Virus record (IMG/VR): IMGVR_UViG_3300036832_001149
Span: 11,535-75,534 of that record
Length of the DNA: 64,000 bases
Reading direction: 5' to 3' (one strand)
Origin: a virus
The translations under genes were made by a program, and so were the position numbers. The stretch's first letter is position 1. The number at the start of each line of letters is the position of its first letter. This document shows, piece by piece, positions 7,358 through 35,698 of the stretch. Under the pieces are notes generated by a model that saw only the letters and a list, made by a program, of their open reading frames with translations, did no database searches and was not told the DNA's origin.

Positions 7358-7413
7358 CTGGATGTTCTCCTTGTGGCATGAGGCCCCCTCCCCTGTGGAC
7401 GGGGCCATGTACT

Positions 7414-7442
7414 ACTATACACCACTAGGATGCTATCTGCAA
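7414..7442 (-). promoter_or_regulatory. sigma70/SigA-type promoter
   Basis: TTGCAG-17-TATAGT. Confidence 0.65.
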
Positions 7443-10201: not shown

Positions 10202-10254
10202 GTGTTCTCCTGTGGGTATGGCTCCCCCACCCCTGTGGCGGGGGTAGCTCGGCT

Positions 10255-10283
10255 AGTCTACCACACTATTACATCTGCCGTAA
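10255..10283 (-). promoter_or_regulatory. promoter carrying the CACTATnA box
   Basis: TTACGG-17-TAGACT with TG extension; 18-mer identical to 33332-33349. Confidence 0.7.
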
Positions 10284-12158: not shown

Positions 12159-12200
12159 GTTGTTCTCCTTGGGGTAGTCGGGCAGGTATCTCCTGCCTTT

Positions 12201-12222
12201 CACTATTACCCAGTATACCACA
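12201..12222 (-). promoter_or_regulatory. extended -10 promoter with a CACTATTAC box at the start site
   Basis: TGTGG-TATACT at 12212-12222; box at 12201-12209. Confidence 0.65.
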
Positions 12223-12578: not shown

Positions 12579-12629
12579 TGTGTTCTCTTTTCTCTGGGGT
12601 GGGGAGCTATCTGCTCCCTCACTGACTCC

Positions 12630-12659
12630 ACTATAACACACTATGATTTCTGTTGTCAA
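12630..12659 (-). promoter_or_regulatory. consensus SigA promoter with CACTATGA box
   Basis: TTGACA-18-TATAGT. Confidence 0.8.
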
Positions 12660-12707
12660 GGTGAAACGTGGAAAGCCACCTGAAATGGGTGGCTCGCTCT
12701 GCTGTTG

Positions 12708-12737
12708 ACTGTACCACACTATAACAAGGAAGGCGAA
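12708..12737 (-). promoter_or_regulatory. extended -10 promoter with CACTATAA box
   Basis: TGTGG-TACAGT. Confidence 0.55.
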
Positions 12738-30421: not shown

Positions 30422-31018
30422 ATGACCACTCCACCGCCAGGGGACGGTCGTAACCAGGTGGTCGACCTGTCGGTGATCGACACGGACTGGGGCAATGCCA
30501 TCGCCGACCGGACCGTCCAGTCCTACGCCAACCAGTCCGATCTGAACTCCGTGTGGGGCGCGGCCCGCAACGGCTCGACGGCCTACACCGTCGACACCGA
30601 CGAGTTCTGGGTCCGCCAGGGCGGGGTCTGGAAGCGGACTCCGGGCGGGTATATCGGCGGGGTGGTCGGTCCGGCCGTCCAGATCGCCTGCCAGGCCTGG
30701 ACCACCCTGATCGAGTACGACTTCCCGGCCAAGGTCGGCCGGAGATACCTGCTCGACGGCTACGTCGATTCACAGCAGATCACCGCCAACGGGGCAACCG
30801 GGGTCGTGATCCGGGACGACCAGGGTCTCCAGCGGTGGCTCAAATACGAGAGCATCCTGGTCCCGGGTGCATCCCTGGCCGGGTCGTGCACGATGATCTA
30901 CACCCCGACCGCGACCAAGACGGCCGCGATCCAGTTGGTTGGGGGGACCTCGGCCGGACAACTGGTCATCCCGGCCAACTGGGCCCAGATCCAGGTCATC
31001 GACATCGGCGGATTATGA
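30422..31018 (+). CDS. minor structural or fibre protein
   Basis: GGAGG RBS; G..AY..DT..FWV...G.W. Confidence 0.7.
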   Translation: MTTPPPGDGRNQVVDLSVIDTDWGNAIADRTVQSYANQSDLNSVWGAARNGSTAYTVDTDEFWVRQGGVWKRTPGGYIGGVVGPAVQIACQAWTTLIEYDFPAKVGRRYLLDGYVDSQQITANGATGVVIRDDQGLQRWLKYESILVPGASLAGSCTMIYTPTATKTAAIQLVGGTSAGQLVIPANWAQIQVIDIGGL

Positions 31019-32535
31019 CCGGAACGCTGCAACTGCTCCGGCCCCCGAAGACGAGGACCGAGCTTTATCTGCTCACCCAGGTCCTGTGGAACGTCACCAT
31101 CCCATCCAAACGGGTCTGCCCGCACCACTCCAGCCCGTTCGACGCCTACGCCGAGGCGTTCTTCGCCGAGACCCCGGTCAGCGTCTGGCTGGCCAGTCGC
31201 GGTCTGGGCGGCAAGAGCCGCACACTGGCCTACCTGACCCTGACCGAGGCGGTCGTGCTCGGGGCCAACGCCACCCTGCTCGGCGGCTCGCTGGCCCAGT
31301 CCCAGAACGTCCACGAGGCGATGCAGGAGGGCTGGGAGGCCCCGCTCGCCCCGACCCAGATGGTCCGCAGCGACACCTCGACCAAGCTGGTGCTGACCAA
31401 TGACGCCACCGTCCGCCCGCTGACCGCGTCGCAGCGCACCGTGCGTGGTCCCCACCCGCACCGGCTGCGGATGGACGAGGCCGACGAGATGGACCAGGCG
31501 ATCTTCGACGCGGCCCTGGGCCAGGCGCTGGCCAGCAAGGGCATCCAGAGCCACACGGCGGTCTCCTCGACCCACCAGTACCCGAACGGCACCTTCACCG
31601 AGGTGCTGCGCCGGGCCGGTGAGCGGAACTGGCCGGTGCACCGCTGGTGCTGGAAGGAGTCCAGCAACGACTACGACGGCTGGCTCACGCCGGAGATGAT
31701 CGAGCGCAAGCGCGCCGAGATCCCGGAGGAGATGTGGAAGGTCGAGTTCGACCTCCAGGAGCCCTCGGTCGGCAACCGGGCCTTCAACACCGATGCGGTC
31801 GAGCGGATGTTCTCGCTGCCATCCGAGCAGGAGTACACCCGCACGGTGCGTGTCGACCTGGAGCGCTACGAGTTCGAGCCGCCCCAGCGGGCGGCCGAGT
31901 ACGTGATCGCGGCCGACTGGGCCAAGGAGCAGGACTACACGGTCATCTGCGTGTTCCGCACCGAGCGCCGCCCGATGAAGCTGGTCTGGTACTACCGGGC
32001 CCGGCGGCGGCCCTACCCGGTGATGATCAAGGAGTTCAACGACCAGATGCAGCGCTACTACGCGCGCGGCATCCACGACGCGACCGGGGTCGGCAACGCC
32101 ATCAACGACCTGCTGGACATGCGGGCGACCAAGTTCGTGATGGTGGGCCGGGAGCGGGACGACCTGCTGTCGGAGTATGTGGCGGCGGTGGAGCGCGACC
32201 TGGTCCGGGCCCCGCGCATCCCCTCGGCCTACACAGCCCACCTGTACTGCTCGGTGGAGGACCTGTACATGCACCGCGAGTACTACTCCAGCCACCTGCC
32301 GGACGAGGTCTGCTCGATGGCCCTGTGCTGGCACCTGGCCAAGCGCGGGGTGCTCATCGGCCCCGACGTGGTGCCGCGCAGCGAGGAGCCCTCGGACATC
32401 ATGTCCAAGCTGGTCGGCACCGCCTCGAAGTCCTCGATGGTCGAGTACAACCTGCCGGACGGGCTGAAGTTCCCCTGGGTGCCTGACGGACAAGTCCATC
32501 GCCAGGATTACGGAACACACTTCTTGGATGTGTGA
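31015..32535 (+). CDS. terL: terminase large subunit
   Basis: ASRGLGGKS, RMDEADEM, AADWAKEQDYT, HLPDEVCSMAL. Confidence 0.9.
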   Translation: MTGTLQLLRPPKTRTELYLLTQVLWNVTIPSKRVCPHHSSPFDAYAEAFFAETPVSVWLASRGLGGKSRTLAYLTLTEAVVLGANATLLGGSLAQSQNVHEAMQEGWEAPLAPTQMVRSDTSTKLVLTNDATVRPLTASQRTVRGPHPHRLRMDEADEMDQAIFDAALGQALASKGIQSHTAVSSTHQYPNGTFTEVLRRAGERNWPVHRWCWKESSNDYDGWLTPEMIERKRAEIPEEMWKVEFDLQEPSVGNRAFNTDAVERMFSLPSEQEYTRTVRVDLERYEFEPPQRAAEYVIAADWAKEQDYTVICVFRTERRPMKLVWYYRARRRPYPVMIKEFNDQMQRYYARGIHDATGVGNAINDLLDMRATKFVMVGRERDDLLSEYVAAVERDLVRAPRIPSAYTAHLYCSVEDLYMHREYYSSHLPDEVCSMALCWHLAKRGVLIGPDVVPRSEEPSDIMSKLVGTASKSSMVEYNLPDGLKFPWVPDGQVHRQDYGTHFLDV

Positions 32536-32972
32536 CTTGATCTCGCTCGACAGTTGATGCGATTGCATTCTCGACACTTGCGCTTGGTCGGTTGACGGGG
32601 CCAACGGTAAGTGTTCTCTGGTGTGTACTCATGTCCCAGTGGGCAGTGTGTCTTGTTCAGTTCGTGGTGGTGACCGTGCGCGATCTTGTCGAGCATGTTC
32701 TCCGACTTGGTGCCCCAACGCAGGTTGGCCGCACGATTGTCCAAACGATCTCCGTTGAGATGACGAACCTCGTGCCCCGGTGGACGACTGCCATGGAACG
32801 CTTCACAGACCAGTTGGTGGACGCGACGAGCCGAAGAATAATGGCCGTTCCAGGCATTGAAGACCTCGTAGCCCTGCTTGGTTACTTTTGTCTTGCGAAC
32901 GCTCTTGGGTCCCTGGATAAGGCCATCATCGCTGGCGAAGTAGCCAGGGAGACTCGGGATGGGTAGCCACAT
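32508..32972 (-). CDS. NUMOD4-HNH homing endonuclease
   Basis: WLPIP..PGY..S..G; VH.LV..AF.G; RHLNGDRLDN...NL.WGT.SEN; KTHCPLGH; lower GC; apparently leaderless (TAGTAT 6 nt upstream). Confidence 0.9.
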   Translation of the reverse strand: MWLPIPSLPGYFASDDGLIQGPKSVRKTKVTKQGYEVFNAWNGHYSSARRVHQLVCEAFHGSRPPGHEVRHLNGDRLDNRAANLRWGTKSENMLDKIAHGHHHELNKTHCPLGHEYTPENTYRWPRQPTKRKCRECNRINCRARSSHTSKKCVP

Positions 32973-33007
32973 GGAGACATACTAGGGGAAGTTCCTGTTT
33001 TTGGGCA

Positions 33008-33032
33008 TAAAAAAAGGCCCCCGAAGGGGCCT
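33008..33032 (-). terminator. intrinsic terminator
   Basis: AGGCCCC-TTCG-GGGGCC-T7. Confidence 0.85.
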
Positions 33033-33322
33033 GGTGCGGTGAACCAGCCAGGGGCTTCCTCTCTTCCTGGCTGGTCCGCCACATCCCCCCGGTGACGCTG
33101 AGGGGAGGGTCTTGAGGTGAACCGTGATGGTCACAGTGTTCGATAGTCACGTTCGGGGAGGGTAACCGTTCACTCTTACCGGCTACCGGTCCCCTACTGC
33201 CTTTCTAGTTACGGACCATGGTTGACGGTCCTGTATCGCGCGCCGGGTTCTCCTCGTCGGGTCTCCGTCGAAACTCACTGTTCGATCGTGCCTCGATGTT
33301 CTGGATCGTCGTCGTCGGCGAT
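33008..33322 (-). ncRNA. candidate ~315-nt structured ncRNA (RNA-B)
   Basis: promoter at 33329-33356, UUCG terminator at 33008-33032, multiple hairpins, no translatable ORF. Confidence 0.55.
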
Positions 33323-33328
33323 GTCTTC

Positions 33329-33356
33329 ATACTACCACACTATTACATCAGTACAA
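33329..33356 (-). promoter_or_regulatory. promoter with CACTATTA box
   Basis: TTGTAC...TGTGG-TAGTAT. Confidence 0.7.
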
Positions 33357-33393
33357 ACACCGAAGGCCCCGGATTTCTCCGGGGCCCTCCTGG

Positions 33394-33573
33394 TCACAGT
33401 CCGTTGATCCGTCGTATGCGCGCCTTCTCCTGCTCCTCGATGAGCCGGGCGATCTGTCGGTCCTCCCGCTCGATGCGGGTGGTCTCCTGCTGGATCTTCC
33501 GGGAGGTCTTGGTGCGCTTGTTGCGCGGACCCAGGAACTGACTTGCGACGATGAGCAGGTCGATGGGGTTCAT
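33394..33573 (-). CDS. 59-aa basic coiled-coil protein (not in ORF track)
   Basis: AGAAAGGAG RBS; MNPIDLLIVASQFLGPRNKR...RRINGL; promoter at 33597-33625; hairpin at 33365-33386. Confidence 0.8.
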   Translation of the reverse strand: MNPIDLLIVASQFLGPRNKRTKTSRKIQQETTRIEREDRQIARLIEEQEKARIRRINGL

Positions 33574-33622
33574 CGCTTCTCCTTTCTGTCACTGTCAGTA
33601 TACCACACTATGATATCGGACA

Positions 33623-33872
33623 TAAGAAGAGGGGACCGCGCCAACCTTCCTCAACCGGCTGGGGGGAGACCTATCCGGTGTGAAGGCGCGATCCCCTCAA
33701 CGTGCCGAGCCCCGACTCGAACGGGGAGCAGACCACGACTGCTCGGCGACCGACACCAGCAAGAGACGTGCTATTGGATCTTGGCCCCGATCGTGGGCCG
33801 GTTATGTTCGGAGAACTCTTCCGGCCCGACGATGCTCGCGCTGTCCGCACACGACTGCTCGGTGTGGTGTCC
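33623..33872 (-). ncRNA. candidate ~250-nt structured ncRNA with tRNA-like element (RNA-A)
   Basis: consensus promoter; T-arm CCCCG-TTCGAGT-CGGGG; 13-nt internal repeat; terminal hairpin followed by U-rich tail. Confidence 0.6.
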
Positions 33873-33877
33873 CTGTC

Positions 33878-33907
33878 ACTATACATCACTATGACATCGG
33901 CTGTCAA
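33878..33907 (-). promoter_or_regulatory. consensus SigA promoter with CACTATGA box
   Basis: TTGACA-18-TATAGT. Confidence 0.8.
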
Positions 33908-33949
33908 TAGAGCAATGTCCGTACTTCCAGGTCGGGCGATGCGACCATC

Positions 33950-35698
33950 ATGACCATGACCAGCGCCGGTGGAGACATCCGAGGATATGGGCCCGGTTCG
34001 GGTCCGGGCACGACCAACGTGCCGAACAACGCCAGTGTGGGCCAGGAGGAGGTGCCCAACCGCACCAGCCCGTACCAGGAACTCGGCGTCACCGGCCTCA
34101 AGCGCTGGTCGGGCTATGTCGACGAGGAGTTCCTGCCCGCGCTGCGCGGGCGCAAGGCCATCCAGATCTTCAAGGAGATGAGCGAGAACGACGCCATCGT
34201 CGGCTCGCTGCTGTTCTCCATCGACATGCTGATCCGCGCGGTCGACTGGCATGTGCAGCCCGCCTCGTCCTCCCAGCCCGACCAGATGGCGGCCCAGTTC
34301 GTCGAGTCGTGCATGAAGGACATGTCCCACACCTGGGACGAACTGGTCTCCGAGATCCTGTCCATGCTGGTCTACGGCTGGTCGTGGCACGAGGTGGTGT
34401 ACAAGAAGCGCGCCGGTCCCAACCGCAACCAGGAACTGAACTCCAACTACGACGATGGCCTGATCGGCTGGCGCAAGATCCCCATCCGGGCCCAGGAGAC
34501 CTGGCTGCAGTGGGTGTTCGACGACTCCGGCGAGACCACGGCCTTGGTCCAACTGGCCCCGCCGACCTACCAGCGCACGGTCATCCCCCGGTCCAAGAGC
34601 CTGCTGTTCCGCTACAGCACGGCCAAGAACAACCCCGAGGGCCGCTCCATCCTGCGCAACTCCTACCGGTCCTGGTACTTCAAGAAGCGGCTGGAGGAGT
34701 TCGAGGGCATCGGCATCGAGCGCGACCTGGCCGGTCTGCCGGTGGCCTACATCCCGGCCGACTACCTCAACGCCAAGCCGGACACCCCGCAGTACAAGAT
34801 CGTCGATGCCTTCCGCCGCATGGTGCGCAGCGTGCGCCGCGACGAGCAGGAGGGGGTCATCATGCCGATGGCCTACGACGAGGACACCAAGCAGCCGCTG
34901 TACAAGTTCGAGTTGATGACCTCGGGCGGGGCCCGGCAGTTCGACACCAACACCATCATCAGCCGCTACGAGCAGCGCATCCTGATGACCGTGCTGGCCG
35001 ACTTCATCATGGTCGGGCACCAGGACACCGGCAGCTACGCGCTGCACGTGGACAAGACCGGCATCTTCCGCTCGGCCCTGAACGCGGTGGTCAAGTCCGT
35101 CGCCGACGTGTTCAACCGCATCGAGATCCCGAGGCTGTTCGCCCTCAACGGCTGGTCGATCGAGTCGTTGCCGGTGCTCACCCCGACCGACGTGGACCCG
35201 CCCGACCTGGCCCAGTTGGGCGCGTTCGTCCAGCAGATGAGCGCGGCCGGGATGACCTTCTTCCCGGACGAGGACCTGGAGGCGTTCCTGCGCACCACGG
35301 CCAAGCTGCCCCCGGTCAGCCCCGAGGTGGCGGCCGAGCGCACGCAGCAGGCGAACCAGCAGCAGGCGATGGAACTGGCCCAGCAGCAGATGGAACTGGC
35401 CACCTCCCACCAGGGGCTGGAACAGGGCCAGCAGGGCATGGAACAGACCGACCAGTCGATGTCCCACGCCGACCAGCAGCAGCAACTGGCCCAACAGCAG
35501 GCCGAGATGCAGGCCCAGACCGCCCAGTCGAACCTGGCCACCGGTTCCGAGCAGGCCCAGCAGCAGCGGGAGACGCACACGATGAACGTGGCCCGCTTCG
35601 TGCAGAGCTACAAGGACTCCGAGGCGGCCCGGCGCAACCCGAACGTGCAGGGCCCGGGTCAGGGCAAGACCACCGGCAAGTACACCGCGAAGAGATGA
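33950..35698 (+). CDS. portal protein (DUF935/Mu gp29-like)
   Basis: YGWSWHEVVYK, NPEGRSILR, IGIERDLAGLP; position after terL. Confidence 0.9.
   Translation: MTMTSAGGDIRGYGPGSGPGTTNVPNNASVGQEEVPNRTSPYQELGVTGLKRWSGYVDEEFLPALRGRKAIQIFKEMSENDAIVGSLLFSIDMLIRAVDWHVQPASSSQPDQMAAQFVESCMKDMSHTWDELVSEILSMLVYGWSWHEVVYKKRAGPNRNQELNSNYDDGLIGWRKIPIRAQETWLQWVFDDSGETTALVQLAPPTYQRTVIPRSKSLLFRYSTAKNNPEGRSILRNSYRSWYFKKRLEEFEGIGIERDLAGLPVAYIPADYLNAKPDTPQYKIVDAFRRMVRSVRRDEQEGVIMPMAYDEDTKQPLYKFELMTSGGARQFDTNTIISRYEQRILMTVLADFIMVGHQDTGSYALHVDKTGIFRSALNAVVKSVADVFNRIEIPRLFALNGWSIESLPVLTPTDVDPPDLAQLGAFVQQMSAAGMTFFPDEDLEAFLRTTAKLPPVSPEVAAERTQQANQQQAMELAQQQMELATSHQGLEQGQQGMEQTDQSMSHADQQQQLAQQQAEMQAQTAQSNLATGSEQAQQQRETHTMNVARFVQSYKDSEAARRNPNVQGPGQGKTTGKYTAKR

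What the first reader, a model, noticed from the sequence alone, without database searches (positions are those of the whole stretch)
33008..33907. Antisense three-unit cassette (RNA, small protein, RNA) between terminase and portal
Seen: three back-to-back minus-strand units, each with its own -10 element (TATAGT 33878, TATACT 33597, TAGTAT 33329), the same CACTATnA box and a closing hairpin or terminator. Only the middle unit has an RBS and ORF (59 aa, basic); the flanking units (~250 and ~315 nt) are hairpin-rich and look non-coding. An HNH endonuclease follows. Inference: an early-expressed module of two ncRNAs and a possible partner protein, such as an anti-defence decoy, an antitoxin mimic or an RNP, possibly mobilised by the HNH.
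Basis: partly seen in the sequence, partly recalled or inferred. Interest (0 to 1): 0.75.

Follow-up and report, generated by a model that had tools for sequence, protein, structure and literature searches.

The report
Antisense RNA-and-peptide island between terminase and portal
An uncultured high-GC soil phage carries, backwards between its terminase and portal genes, three self-contained promoter-to-terminator units: two appear to make structured non-coding RNAs that match no known RNA family (one contains a tRNA-like elbow) and one makes a conserved 59-residue protein; the arrangement recurs in the phage's few known relatives, but its function is unknown.

Summary
Three minus-strand units lie at 33008-33907. 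Each starts with the same 15-17 nt extended -10 box and ends in a hairpin terminator. That box occurs 8 times in the window, all on the minus strand (0.42 expected), and also drives the leftward block of small genes.

Only the middle unit is coding: 59 aa, GC3 0.87, in a narrow family of about 10 representatives among 1.84 billion proteins. Units 1 and 3 show no codon periodicity and no conserved ORF.

Most portal relatives have terL and portal almost adjacent. The four closest (L008-L011) carry a 1.8-2.5 kb gap (about 1.4 kb in the window) filled with the same kind of antisense cassette.

- **Unit 3 ("RNA-3", about 315 nt):** present in all five phages, with six helices. Of 30 hand-aligned pairs, 12 show compensatory changes and 147 of 148 cells pair. 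The single-stranded motifs are invariant. Formal tests on two helices were not significant (N=5).
- **Unit 1 ("RNA-1", about 250 nt):** carries a canonical T-arm plus an acceptor-like stem and no anticodon arm. This module is conserved in 3 of 5 phages with covarying stems.

No Rfam, tRNA or tmRNA match was found. The HNH gene is present in only 2 of 5 islands, so it is not what mobilises the module. No expression data could be found, and function remains inferred.

The parts
33878..33907 (-). Promoter of unit 1: -35 TTGACA (33907-33902), 18-nt spacer containing the shared ATAGTG box, -10 TATAGT (33883-33878)
   Evidence: (11/12 match)
33622..33871 (-). RNA-1 (unit 1), about 250 nt, apparently non-coding. 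The 5' domain is closed by GACACCA (33871-33865) pairing with TGGTGTC (33758-33752). A tRNA-elbow module and a terminator hairpin follow.
   Evidence: No GC3 periodicity and no conserved ORF. MFE z -2.9 with the terminator and -1.7 without.
33703..33747 (-). tRNA-elbow-like module. It comprises a 5' acceptor-like strand GCCGAGC (33747-33741), a GG-containing D-loop-like stretch (33740-33727), a T-arm CCCCG-UUCGAGU-CGGGG (33726-33710), a 3' strand CUCGGC plus A (33709-33703), and no anticodon arm. A 13-mer duplicate of the 5' strand lies at 33862-33850.
   Evidence: It is the only canonical T-arm hairpin in the genome. Syntenic copies in L010 and L011 have different, complementary stems.
33597..33611 (-). 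Promoter of unit 2 (ATAGTGTGGTATACT, extended -10)
33394..33573 (-). 59-aa basic protein with RBS GAAAGGAG at 33586-33579. It has a hydrophobic N-terminus (MNPxDLxLVA), a charged helix and a C-terminal RRRINGL motif.
   Evidence: GC3 0.87. Homologues in L008-L011. Ten representatives in 1.84 billion proteins. No Pfam or PHROG hit.
33352..33389 (-). Terminator of unit 2 (12-bp stem, GU-rich tail)
33329..33343 (-). Promoter of unit 3 (ATAGTGTGGTAGTAT)
33008..33325 (-). RNA-3 (unit 3), about 315 nt, apparently non-coding. Elements: conserved 5' end GACAUCGC; P1 (33322-33318 with 33239-33235); H0 (33297-33285); H1 (33231-33213); J1/4 with UAGAAAGG (33212-33194); H4 (33193-33156); J4/2 with GACUAUCGAACACUGUG (33155-33137); H2 (33136-33117); 3' hairpins, one with a GA-rich loop (about 33080-33037); terminator 33032-33015 plus U7.
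   Evidence: Homologues in L008, L009, L010 and L011. An L009-seeded covariance model finds L010, L008 and L011 at E 7e-13 to 1.5e-5.
32508..32972 (-). HNH_3 homing-type endonuclease (154 aa). A possible leaderless start has -10 TAGTAT at 32984-32979, six bases before the ATG. Its 3' end overlaps the terL stop by 28 nt. It is a passenger, not part of the conserved module.
   Evidence: (GC3 0.63).

Best explanation
The interval is a lineage-specific accessory island inserted backwards into the packaging and head operon. It is built from autonomous cassettes of promoter, payload and intrinsic terminator.

The promoters are host-type extended -10 promoters. They are the same type as those driving the phage's leftward block of small genes, so the island is probably transcribed by unmodified host RNA polymerase early in infection and independently of the late + strand operon.

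In this phage two payloads are structured non-coding RNAs and one is a conserved 59-aa basic protein.

- **RNA-3** is a candidate new RNA family. It folds into a 5'-end-sequestering helix and at least four hairpins, which hold invariant single-stranded segments: a Shine-Dalgarno-like UAGARAGG and GACUAUCGAAnACUGUG. I infer these segments are its interaction surface for a host or phage partner acting in trans.
- **RNA-1** carries an anticodon-less tRNA elbow: an acceptor-like stem, a GG loop and a canonical T-arm. I infer it is a handle for tRNA-recognising host enzymes (RNase P, RNase Z, CCA-adding enzyme). These would cut or stabilise the transcript. In two relatives this would separate a structured 5' domain from the small-protein mRNA that directly follows.

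Shown here: the anatomy, the conservation, the lack of coding signal and the helix-preserving substitutions. Inferred: expression timing, trans action and the processing role.
For: **Promoter family**
- 8 sites in the window, all on the minus strand, against 0.42 expected.
- The same box precedes ordinary RBS-bearing small genes at 7.4-12.7 kb.
- It also heads the cassettes of the relatives' islands.
- Terminators.

**Island is a clade trait**
- About 32 of the 43 portal relatives in which terL was found have terL and portal almost adjacent.
- The window and L008-L011 have 1.4-2.5 kb of antisense cassettes. L067 has a smaller version.

**Coding versus non-coding**
- GC3 is 0.87-0.95 over the 59-aa ORF. 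There is no periodicity in units 1 and 3.
- There is no shared ORF, and stops lie inside the most conserved core.

**RNA-3**
- Found by blastn and nhmmer only in the five phages, always downstream of the small ORF: directly in four, one cassette away in L009.
- Independent MFE folds recover most of the same helices (H1 and H4 in all five) at the same distances from the 5' end.
- Of 30 hand-aligned pairs, 147 of 148 cells pair and 12 pairs show compensatory changes. The G-U pairs are valid only on the minus strand.
- H0 and H4 arms pair only with their own partner: 100% against 38-45% in derangements.
- MFE z without the terminator is -1.9, -3.8, -1.0, -2.3 and -2.75, against -0.4 and +1.1 for coding controls.

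**RNA-1**
- One canonical T-arm lies at RNA position 147, 158 and 151 in the window, L010 and L011.
- The stems are CCCCG/CGGGG, GUCGG/CCGAC and GCCCG/CGGGC, each followed by a conserved GGCACG.
- It is the only such hairpin in the genome.
- Across 1.4 Mb of other loci, most such hairpins look like phage tRNAs.

**Precedent**
- Highly expressed ncRNAs of unknown function are reported in actinobacteriophages WC1, D29 and Kampy (PMC10986025).
Against: - There is no expression evidence. No RNA run holds the sequence, and the phage and its host are uncultured.
- Only five genomes are available. Tool-based covariation tests on H1 and H2 were not significant (51-54 of 500 shuffles reach the observed score).
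- The helix table was hand-picked, which introduces selection bias.
- An L009-seeded covariance model did not recover the window's own copy, which lacks H3 and has a 38-nt H4.
- RNA-1's stability without its terminator is weak (z -0.7 to -1.7).
- The elbow is absent from L008 and L009. In L010 and L011 it is a 5' leader rather than a separate RNA.
- No partner or target was identified. No long complementarity exists elsewhere in the window.
Confidence: 0.55

Rival explanations
1. Cis-antisense timing device. The island's main role is to produce RNAs perfectly complementary to the late terL-to-portal read-through transcript, and to set up convergent transcription. Early on this would lead to the late transcript being cleaved or blocked, uncoupling or delaying portal and head expression. 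The RNA structures would be incidental.
For: The island sits inside the + strand late operon, and every cassette is antisense to it in all five phages plus L067. No strong + strand terminator or consensus + strand promoter was seen before portal, so late transcription probably crosses the island.
Against: A pure antisense role needs no conserved structure or sequence, yet the helices and single-stranded motifs of RNA-3 and the T-arm of RNA-1 are maintained while surrounding island sequence has diverged beyond alignment. Most relatives manage without any island. The cassettes also carry protein genes.
Confidence: 0.15
2. Relics. Units 1 and 3 are decayed former protein-coding cassettes or long untranslated regions. 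They are kept only because promoters and terminators are needed to insulate the island, and the apparent structure is what GC-rich sequence gives by chance plus hand-picking.
For: The formal covariation tests are not significant. MFE z-scores are modest for some copies: L010 RNA-3 is -1.0 and L011 RNA-1 is -0.7. The islands are mosaic and contain minimal promoter-plus-hairpin units with no payload. The window's RNA-3 lacks helix H3.
Against: The RNA-3 core is as conserved at nucleotide level (75% over 108 nt) as the neighbouring real gene, while the rest of the island cannot be aligned. H0 and H4 are rebuilt with entirely different complementary arms at the same positions in all five phages. 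The T-arm keeps the G53-C61 closing pair and the UUCGAnU loop with three different stems.
Confidence: 0.13
3. Ribonucleoprotein or toxin-antitoxin-like module. The basic 59-aa protein binds RNA-3 and/or RNA-1, and the three units work as one machine, for example a protein sequestered or guided by its neighbouring RNA.
For: The small ORF is directly followed by RNA-3 in 4 of 5 islands and is one cassette away in L009. It is preceded by the RNA-1-type leader in 3 of 5. The protein is Arg/Lys-rich with an invariant C-terminal RRRINGL. Both the protein family and the RNA family are restricted to this clade.
Against: Each unit has its own promoter and terminator. There are no tandem RNA repeats as in ToxI. 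The RNAs are co-oriented and do not overlap the ORF, unlike type I systems. The protein has no nuclease, RNA-binding or membrane-toxin domain hit. Adjacency in five related genomes may simply be shared ancestry.
Confidence: 0.1

Closest known systems
Phage morons (autonomous promoter-gene-terminator units inserted between essential late genes, as described in lambdoid and HK97-like phages; from established knowledge)
   Same: Each unit has its own promoter and intrinsic terminator. The units are inserted between two conserved late genes that are adjacent in most relatives, and their content is mosaic and variable.
   Different: This is a tandem array of 3-6 cassettes, all antisense to the flanking operon. 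All use one phage-wide promoter box, and several payloads are RNAs rather than proteins.
Highly expressed non-coding RNAs of unknown function in actinobacteriophages (Rhodococcus phage WC1; mycobacteriophages D29 and Kampy; PMC10986025)
   Same: These are also high-GC actinophage-type genomes with discrete non-coding regions, apparently transcribed as abundant RNAs of unknown function.
   Different: Those RNAs lie at the genome ends or middle, not between terL and portal. No sequence or structure relation was tested or is known. Expression is shown there and only predicted here.
tRNA-like domains that lack an anticodon arm: the tmRNA tRNA-like domain, bacterial Y RNA (YrlA), mascRNA-type processed tRNA-like RNAs (from established knowledge)
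   Same: An acceptor-like stem stacked on a canonical T-arm (5 bp, UUCGAnU loop, G-C closing pair), with a nearby GG that could play the D-loop role. There is no anticodon arm.
   Different: Not called by ARAGORN or by any Rfam model. There is no G3-U70 pair, no encoded CCA and no tag reading frame. The phage has no Ro60, RtcB or CCA-adding gene.
CsrB/RsmZ-type sponge RNAs (several hairpins displaying GGA or GA-rich motifs)
   Same: RNA-3 shows purine-rich AGAGAAG / AGARAGG / GAGAGG motifs in the H0 loop, the J1/4 junction, the H3 loop and a 3' hairpin loop.
   Different: Rfam scores are far below threshold: rsmX 18 bits against 56, and RsmZ 16 against 44. From general knowledge, CsrA is not typical of Actinobacteria. 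Enrichment of the motif was not tested statistically.
Candidate structured RNAs predicted at scale from IMG/VR (PMC10690425)
   Same: Same data source and the same kind of object: phage csRNAs, including tRNA-like ones and ones next to terminase genes.
   Different: I could not check whether these two RNAs are in that catalogue. That study lists motifs upstream of terminase in the sense orientation.

Membership tests
tRNA | Full cloverleaf with an anticodon arm, recognised by tRNA finders and models | tested here: not met
   ARAGORN finds 0 genes in the window and in the whole genome. There is no tRNA-clan hit in Rfam even at E<=10 on a 191-nt slice.
tRNA | T-arm: 5-bp stem, 7-nt UUCRANN loop, G53-C61 closing pair | tested here: met
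   Window 33726-33710, L010 2533-2517 and L011 5262-5246.
tmRNA | tRNA-like domain with a G3-U70 pair, a tag-peptide reading frame and pseudoknots; detected by ARAGORN or Rfam | tested here: not met
   No ARAGORN tmRNA call and no Rfam hit. Read from the sequence, the third acceptor pair is C-G.
Bacterial Y RNA (YrlA) | Encoded with or next to a Ro60/Rsr (TROVE) gene; matches the Y RNA model | tested here: not met
   TROVE (PF05731) is absent from the phage genome. There is no Rfam match.
Type III toxin-antitoxin (ToxIN-like) | Tandem array of short RNA repeats followed by an endoribonuclease toxin | tested here: not met
   No tandem array in 32400-34100 beyond two trivial 2-copy rows. The 59-aa protein has no family hit.
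Type I toxin-antitoxin | Small membrane-toxin ORF with an overlapping antisense RNA | tested here: not met
   The RNAs are on the same strand as the ORF and do not overlap it. The hydrophobic N-terminus is only about 12-14 residues and contains a conserved Asp.
Phage moron | Own promoter and own terminator, inserted between genes that are adjacent in relatives | tested here: met
   The orientation, tandem array and RNA payloads are atypical.
Any Rfam 15 family | Score at or above the family's gathering threshold | tested here: not met
   0 matches in the window and in L008-L011. The best sub-threshold hit is Atu_C8 at 31 bits against 50, covering only the hairpin plus terminator.
CsrB/Rsm-type sponge RNA | Multiple GGA motifs in hairpin loops, plus a cognate CsrA/RsmA protein | tested here: inconclusive
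   GA-rich motifs are seen in loops. Rfam scores are far below threshold. No search for CsrA was run.
HNH_3 homing-type endonuclease (for the downstream gene only) | Match to the PF13392 domain | tested here: met
   E 5e-18 at 64.8 bits against a 24.8 cut-off; phrog_1492 at E 1e-52.

The most novel reading that the evidence does not exclude
RNA-1 may be an anticodon-less tRNA mimic made early in infection. It would act as a decoy or hijacker of proteins that read the tRNA elbow and acceptor end, for example acceptor-end-modifying abortive-infection toxins of the AbiEii/MenT nucleotidyltransferase type, or RNase P and the CCA-adding enzyme. RNA-3 may be a new class of phage sponge or guide RNA that works with the clade-specific 59-aa basic protein. 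Together with a shuffling promoter/terminator 'cassette array', this would be an RNA-based counter-defence or take-over island hidden inside the packaging operon.
Probability: 0.12. Interest if true: 0.85.

Novelty: new variant of a known kind. Interest (0 to 1): 0.55.

Why it matters
Phage-encoded structured RNAs are far less charted than phage proteins, especially in high-GC actinophage-like viruses, where abundant ncRNAs have been seen but not explained.

This locus offers two compact candidate RNA families with defined promoters, ends and conserved motifs. It also offers a partner-sized orphan protein, all arranged in a cassette array that appears to evolve by swapping units at shared promoter and terminator boxes.

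If the tRNA-elbow module is a processing handle or a decoy, it would be a bacterial-virus counterpart of tRNA-like elements known from RNA viruses and eukaryotic lncRNAs. If the RNAs prove inert, the island is still a clear example of an insertion hotspot between terL and portal.

Tried and rejected
- **Rfam:** gathering and E<=10 modes on the window, on slices and on L008-L011 gave no family.
- **ARAGORN:** no genes.
- **Expression:** no RNA holder was listed for the stretch. Only three soil-metagenome DNA runs held it. Laying their contigs added nothing on transcripts.
- **More relatives:**
  - The metagenome scan gave only a short extra contig.
  - Motif scans of viral contigs and genome contigs returned only the known loci or chance hits.
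  - The search for related loci with the small-protein alignments failed or found nothing.
- I dropped that step and rely on the pattern searches.
- **Alignments and covariance models:**
  - MAFFT alignments of whole RNA-3 were unreliable across the variable hairpins.
  - Covariance models seeded on L009 found L010, L008 and L011 but not the window copy, and misaligned L008.
  - The helix table was therefore made by hand.
- **Targets:** no long complementarity of the RNA-3 junction motifs elsewhere in the window.
- **Y-RNA and RNA-repair idea:** no Ro60, RtcB or CCA-adding genes.
- **Protein look-alikes:** nothing for the 59-aa protein, and no families for nine other island ORFs beyond weak coiled-coil hits.
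- **Considered and dropped:**
  - Group I intron: wrong strand and no Rfam hit.
  - phi29-like pRNA: only a positional resemblance.
  - Riboswitch for the downstream gene: the downstream genes differ in every phage and have their own promoters.
  - N-like antitermination: every cassette has its own promoter.

Full report
**Context**

The window is 64 kb of a 75.5-kb, 66% GC IMG/VR virus record that is about 94% complete. It was recovered from soil metagenomes. The nearest cultured phages, from Arthrobacter and Microbacterium, share only about 45% portal identity.

A GC3-based gene map shows a leftward block of small genes up to about 13.2 kb. From about 14.6 kb onward there is a rightward block holding replication, tail-like, terL, portal and head genes. 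terL (+, 30553-32535) and a Mu-type portal (+, 33950-35698) flank the finding.

On the minus strand, three copies of a 17-nt box lie 268 and 281 nt apart.

The box (ATAGTGTGGTATAnT, an extended -10) occurs 8 times in the window, always on the minus strand, against 0.42 expected. In the whole genome a looser form of the box gives 7 reverse and 0 forward hits. The other five sites precede ordinary small genes that have a 5' hairpin and an RBS. It is therefore the phage's leftward promoter type, and its use here is the basis for calling the island 'early'. That is an inference.

Unit 1 additionally has a consensus -35. Terminators close units 2 and 3, and a long hairpin plus U-rich tail closes unit 1.

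**Coding versus non-coding**

The 59-aa ORF has the genome's coding signature, with GC3 0.87-0.95 across it. Units 1 and 3 show no three-base periodicity. They have stops in every frame, and no ORF is shared among homologues.

The protein is real. Homologues sit in all four related islands. A profile search of 1.84 billion representative proteins finds 10 members, which share MNPxDLxLVA, RIEREDRQI and a C-terminal RRRINGL. It has no Pfam, PHROG or Atlas relative.

**The island is a clade trait**

terL was found upstream of portal in 43 of the 80 IMG/VR portal relatives. In about 32 of them the terL-portal distance is only 0.1-0.25 kb. A few carry + strand insertions.

The four closest relatives (L008, L009, L010, L011; portal 72-87% identical) have 1.8-2.5 kb gaps. 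These are filled, as in the window, with antisense cassettes that use the same promoter box and hairpin terminators. L067 (71%) has a simpler version.

Cassette content is mosaic. It includes orphan small proteins with no family hits, apparently non-coding units, and even promoter-plus-hairpin units with no payload.

The window's own unit 1/2 junction is chimeric. Its T-arm region matches L011 (86% over 37 nt), while its terminator, promoter and ORF match L008 (73-75%). This suggests cassette exchange at the shared boxes.

**RNA-3 (unit 3)**

blastn and an nhmmer profile find it only in these five phages, once per genome. It lies downstream of the small ORF in every case: directly in four, and one cassette away in L009.

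Independent MFE folds of the five copies recover most of the same elements (H1 and H4 in all five) at similar distances from the 5' end. The elements are:
- P1, which pairs the conserved 5' end (GACAUCGC) with GCGAU.
- Hairpin H0, with an AGAGAA loop.
- H1.
- A single-stranded UAGARAGG junction.
- A variable hairpin H4.
- A single-stranded GACUAUCGAAnACUGUG junction.
- H2.
- H3, which is absent in the window.

In a hand-made helix table, 147 of 148 cells form standard pairs and 12 of 30 pairs show compensatory changes. Three G-U pairs would be C-A mismatches on the other strand. H0 and H4 are rebuilt from entirely different complementary arms in each phage. Dealing the arms to other sequences drops pairing from 100% to 38-45%.

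MFE z-scores without the terminator average -2.3, against -0.4 and +1.1 for coding controls.

The caveats are substantial:
- There are only five sequences.
- The helices were hand-picked.
- The tool tests on H1 and H2 each show one compensatory pair and are not significant.
- L009-seeded covariance models recover L010, L008 and L011 (E 7e-13 to 1.5e-5) but not the window's copy.

**RNA-1 (unit 1)**

Its most constrained part is a canonical T-arm: a 5-bp stem, a UUCGAnU loop and a G-C closing pair. The T-arm is followed by GGCACG. It lies 147-158 nt from the predicted start in the window, L010 and L011, with three different complementary stems.

Around it, an acceptor-like stem and a GG-containing loop or hairpin complete an elbow without an anticodon arm. 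A 13-mer containing the 5' acceptor strand is duplicated near the RNA's 5' end.

It is the only such hairpin in the genome, and the phage has no tRNA or tmRNA genes.

In L010 and L011 the module sits directly before the RBS of the small ORF. In the window, a terminator and a second promoter intervene. L008 and L009 lack it.

Because the module is kept in the window even though it is uncoupled from the ORF, I favour a role that does not depend on being in cis. The first option is a handle for tRNA-processing enzymes that matures or stabilises the RNA. The second is a decoy. Neither was tested.

**What it is not**

- There is no Rfam family.
- It is not a tRNA or tmRNA.
- It is not a Y RNA: the phage has no Ro60, RtcB or CCA-adding enzyme.
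- It is not a ToxI-like repeat array.
- There is no overlapping antisense pair.

The HNH_3 gene is a passenger. It is present only in the window and L010 (70% identical, at the same terL-proximal position). Its GC3 is low (0.63), and it is absent from three islands that keep the RNAs.

**Verdict**

This is a real, conserved and unusual antisense cassette island. It contains one bona fide orphan small protein and two good candidate structured RNAs that match no Rfam family. Expression, partners and function remain open.

I put the chance that RNA-3 is a functional structured RNA at about 0.7. For the RNA-1 elbow module I put it at about 0.6. Any specific mechanism is well below 0.5.

The scan's other first-stage notes on the same stretch independently described the tRNA-elbow module. 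I verified that part.

Noticed in passing
window 32970-32990 (minus strand); L010 about 777-800: The HNH gene may be expressed as a leaderless mRNA. A TAGTAT -10 lies at 32984-32979, six bases before the ATG at 32972, and there is no RBS. The gene's 3' end overlaps the terL stop convergently by 28 nt (32508-32535). Its GC3 of 0.63 suggests recent acquisition.
   Followed up: partly
window 12650-12722 (minus strand); L008 2100-2170 (minus strand): Minimal cassettes: a full promoter box followed after about 15-20 nt by a terminator-like hairpin and then the next promoter. The transcripts would be only about 35-50 nt, or these may be insulators.
   Followed up: no
window 7380-7414, 10220-10255, 12170-12212, 12590-12630 (minus strand): Every leftward promoter is followed within about 10-20 nt by a GC-rich 5' hairpin before the RBS. 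This looks like a phage-wide 5'-UTR design, possibly for mRNA stabilisation.
   Followed up: no
window 33937-33949 (+ strand), and the same position in L008-L011: A conserved GTAC...GATGCGACCATC sequence lies immediately upstream of the portal start codon, with no Shine-Dalgarno sequence. It is unique in the window. It could be a late promoter, a leaderless start, or a translation signal for portal.
   Followed up: partly
L008 3845-4189, L010 1340-1591, L011 5503-5706 (minus strand): Three islands share a small coiled-coil protein family ending in a Cys (...HQC, ...KDC, ...HDC), with weak XhlA-like 'hemolysin' PHROG hits. It is absent from the window's island.
   Followed up: partly
L018, L019, L040, L043 terL-portal gaps: More distant relatives carry + strand insertions at the same junction. 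These include proteins starting MISAFGVDHG and an NlpC/P60-like ORF. The terL-portal junction therefore appears to be a general insertion hotspot in this phage group.
   Followed up: partly
window 33700-33736, run X1: In the soil run that probably yielded this genome, a second contig matches only the T-arm stretch and then continues as the L011-type junction (RBS plus small ORF). Two island variants therefore co-occur in one sample.
   Followed up: no
window 33416-33491: There is a 19-nt imperfect direct repeat (79% identical, 57 nt apart) inside the 59-aa ORF. It corresponds to the repeated charged-helix motif.
   Followed up: no
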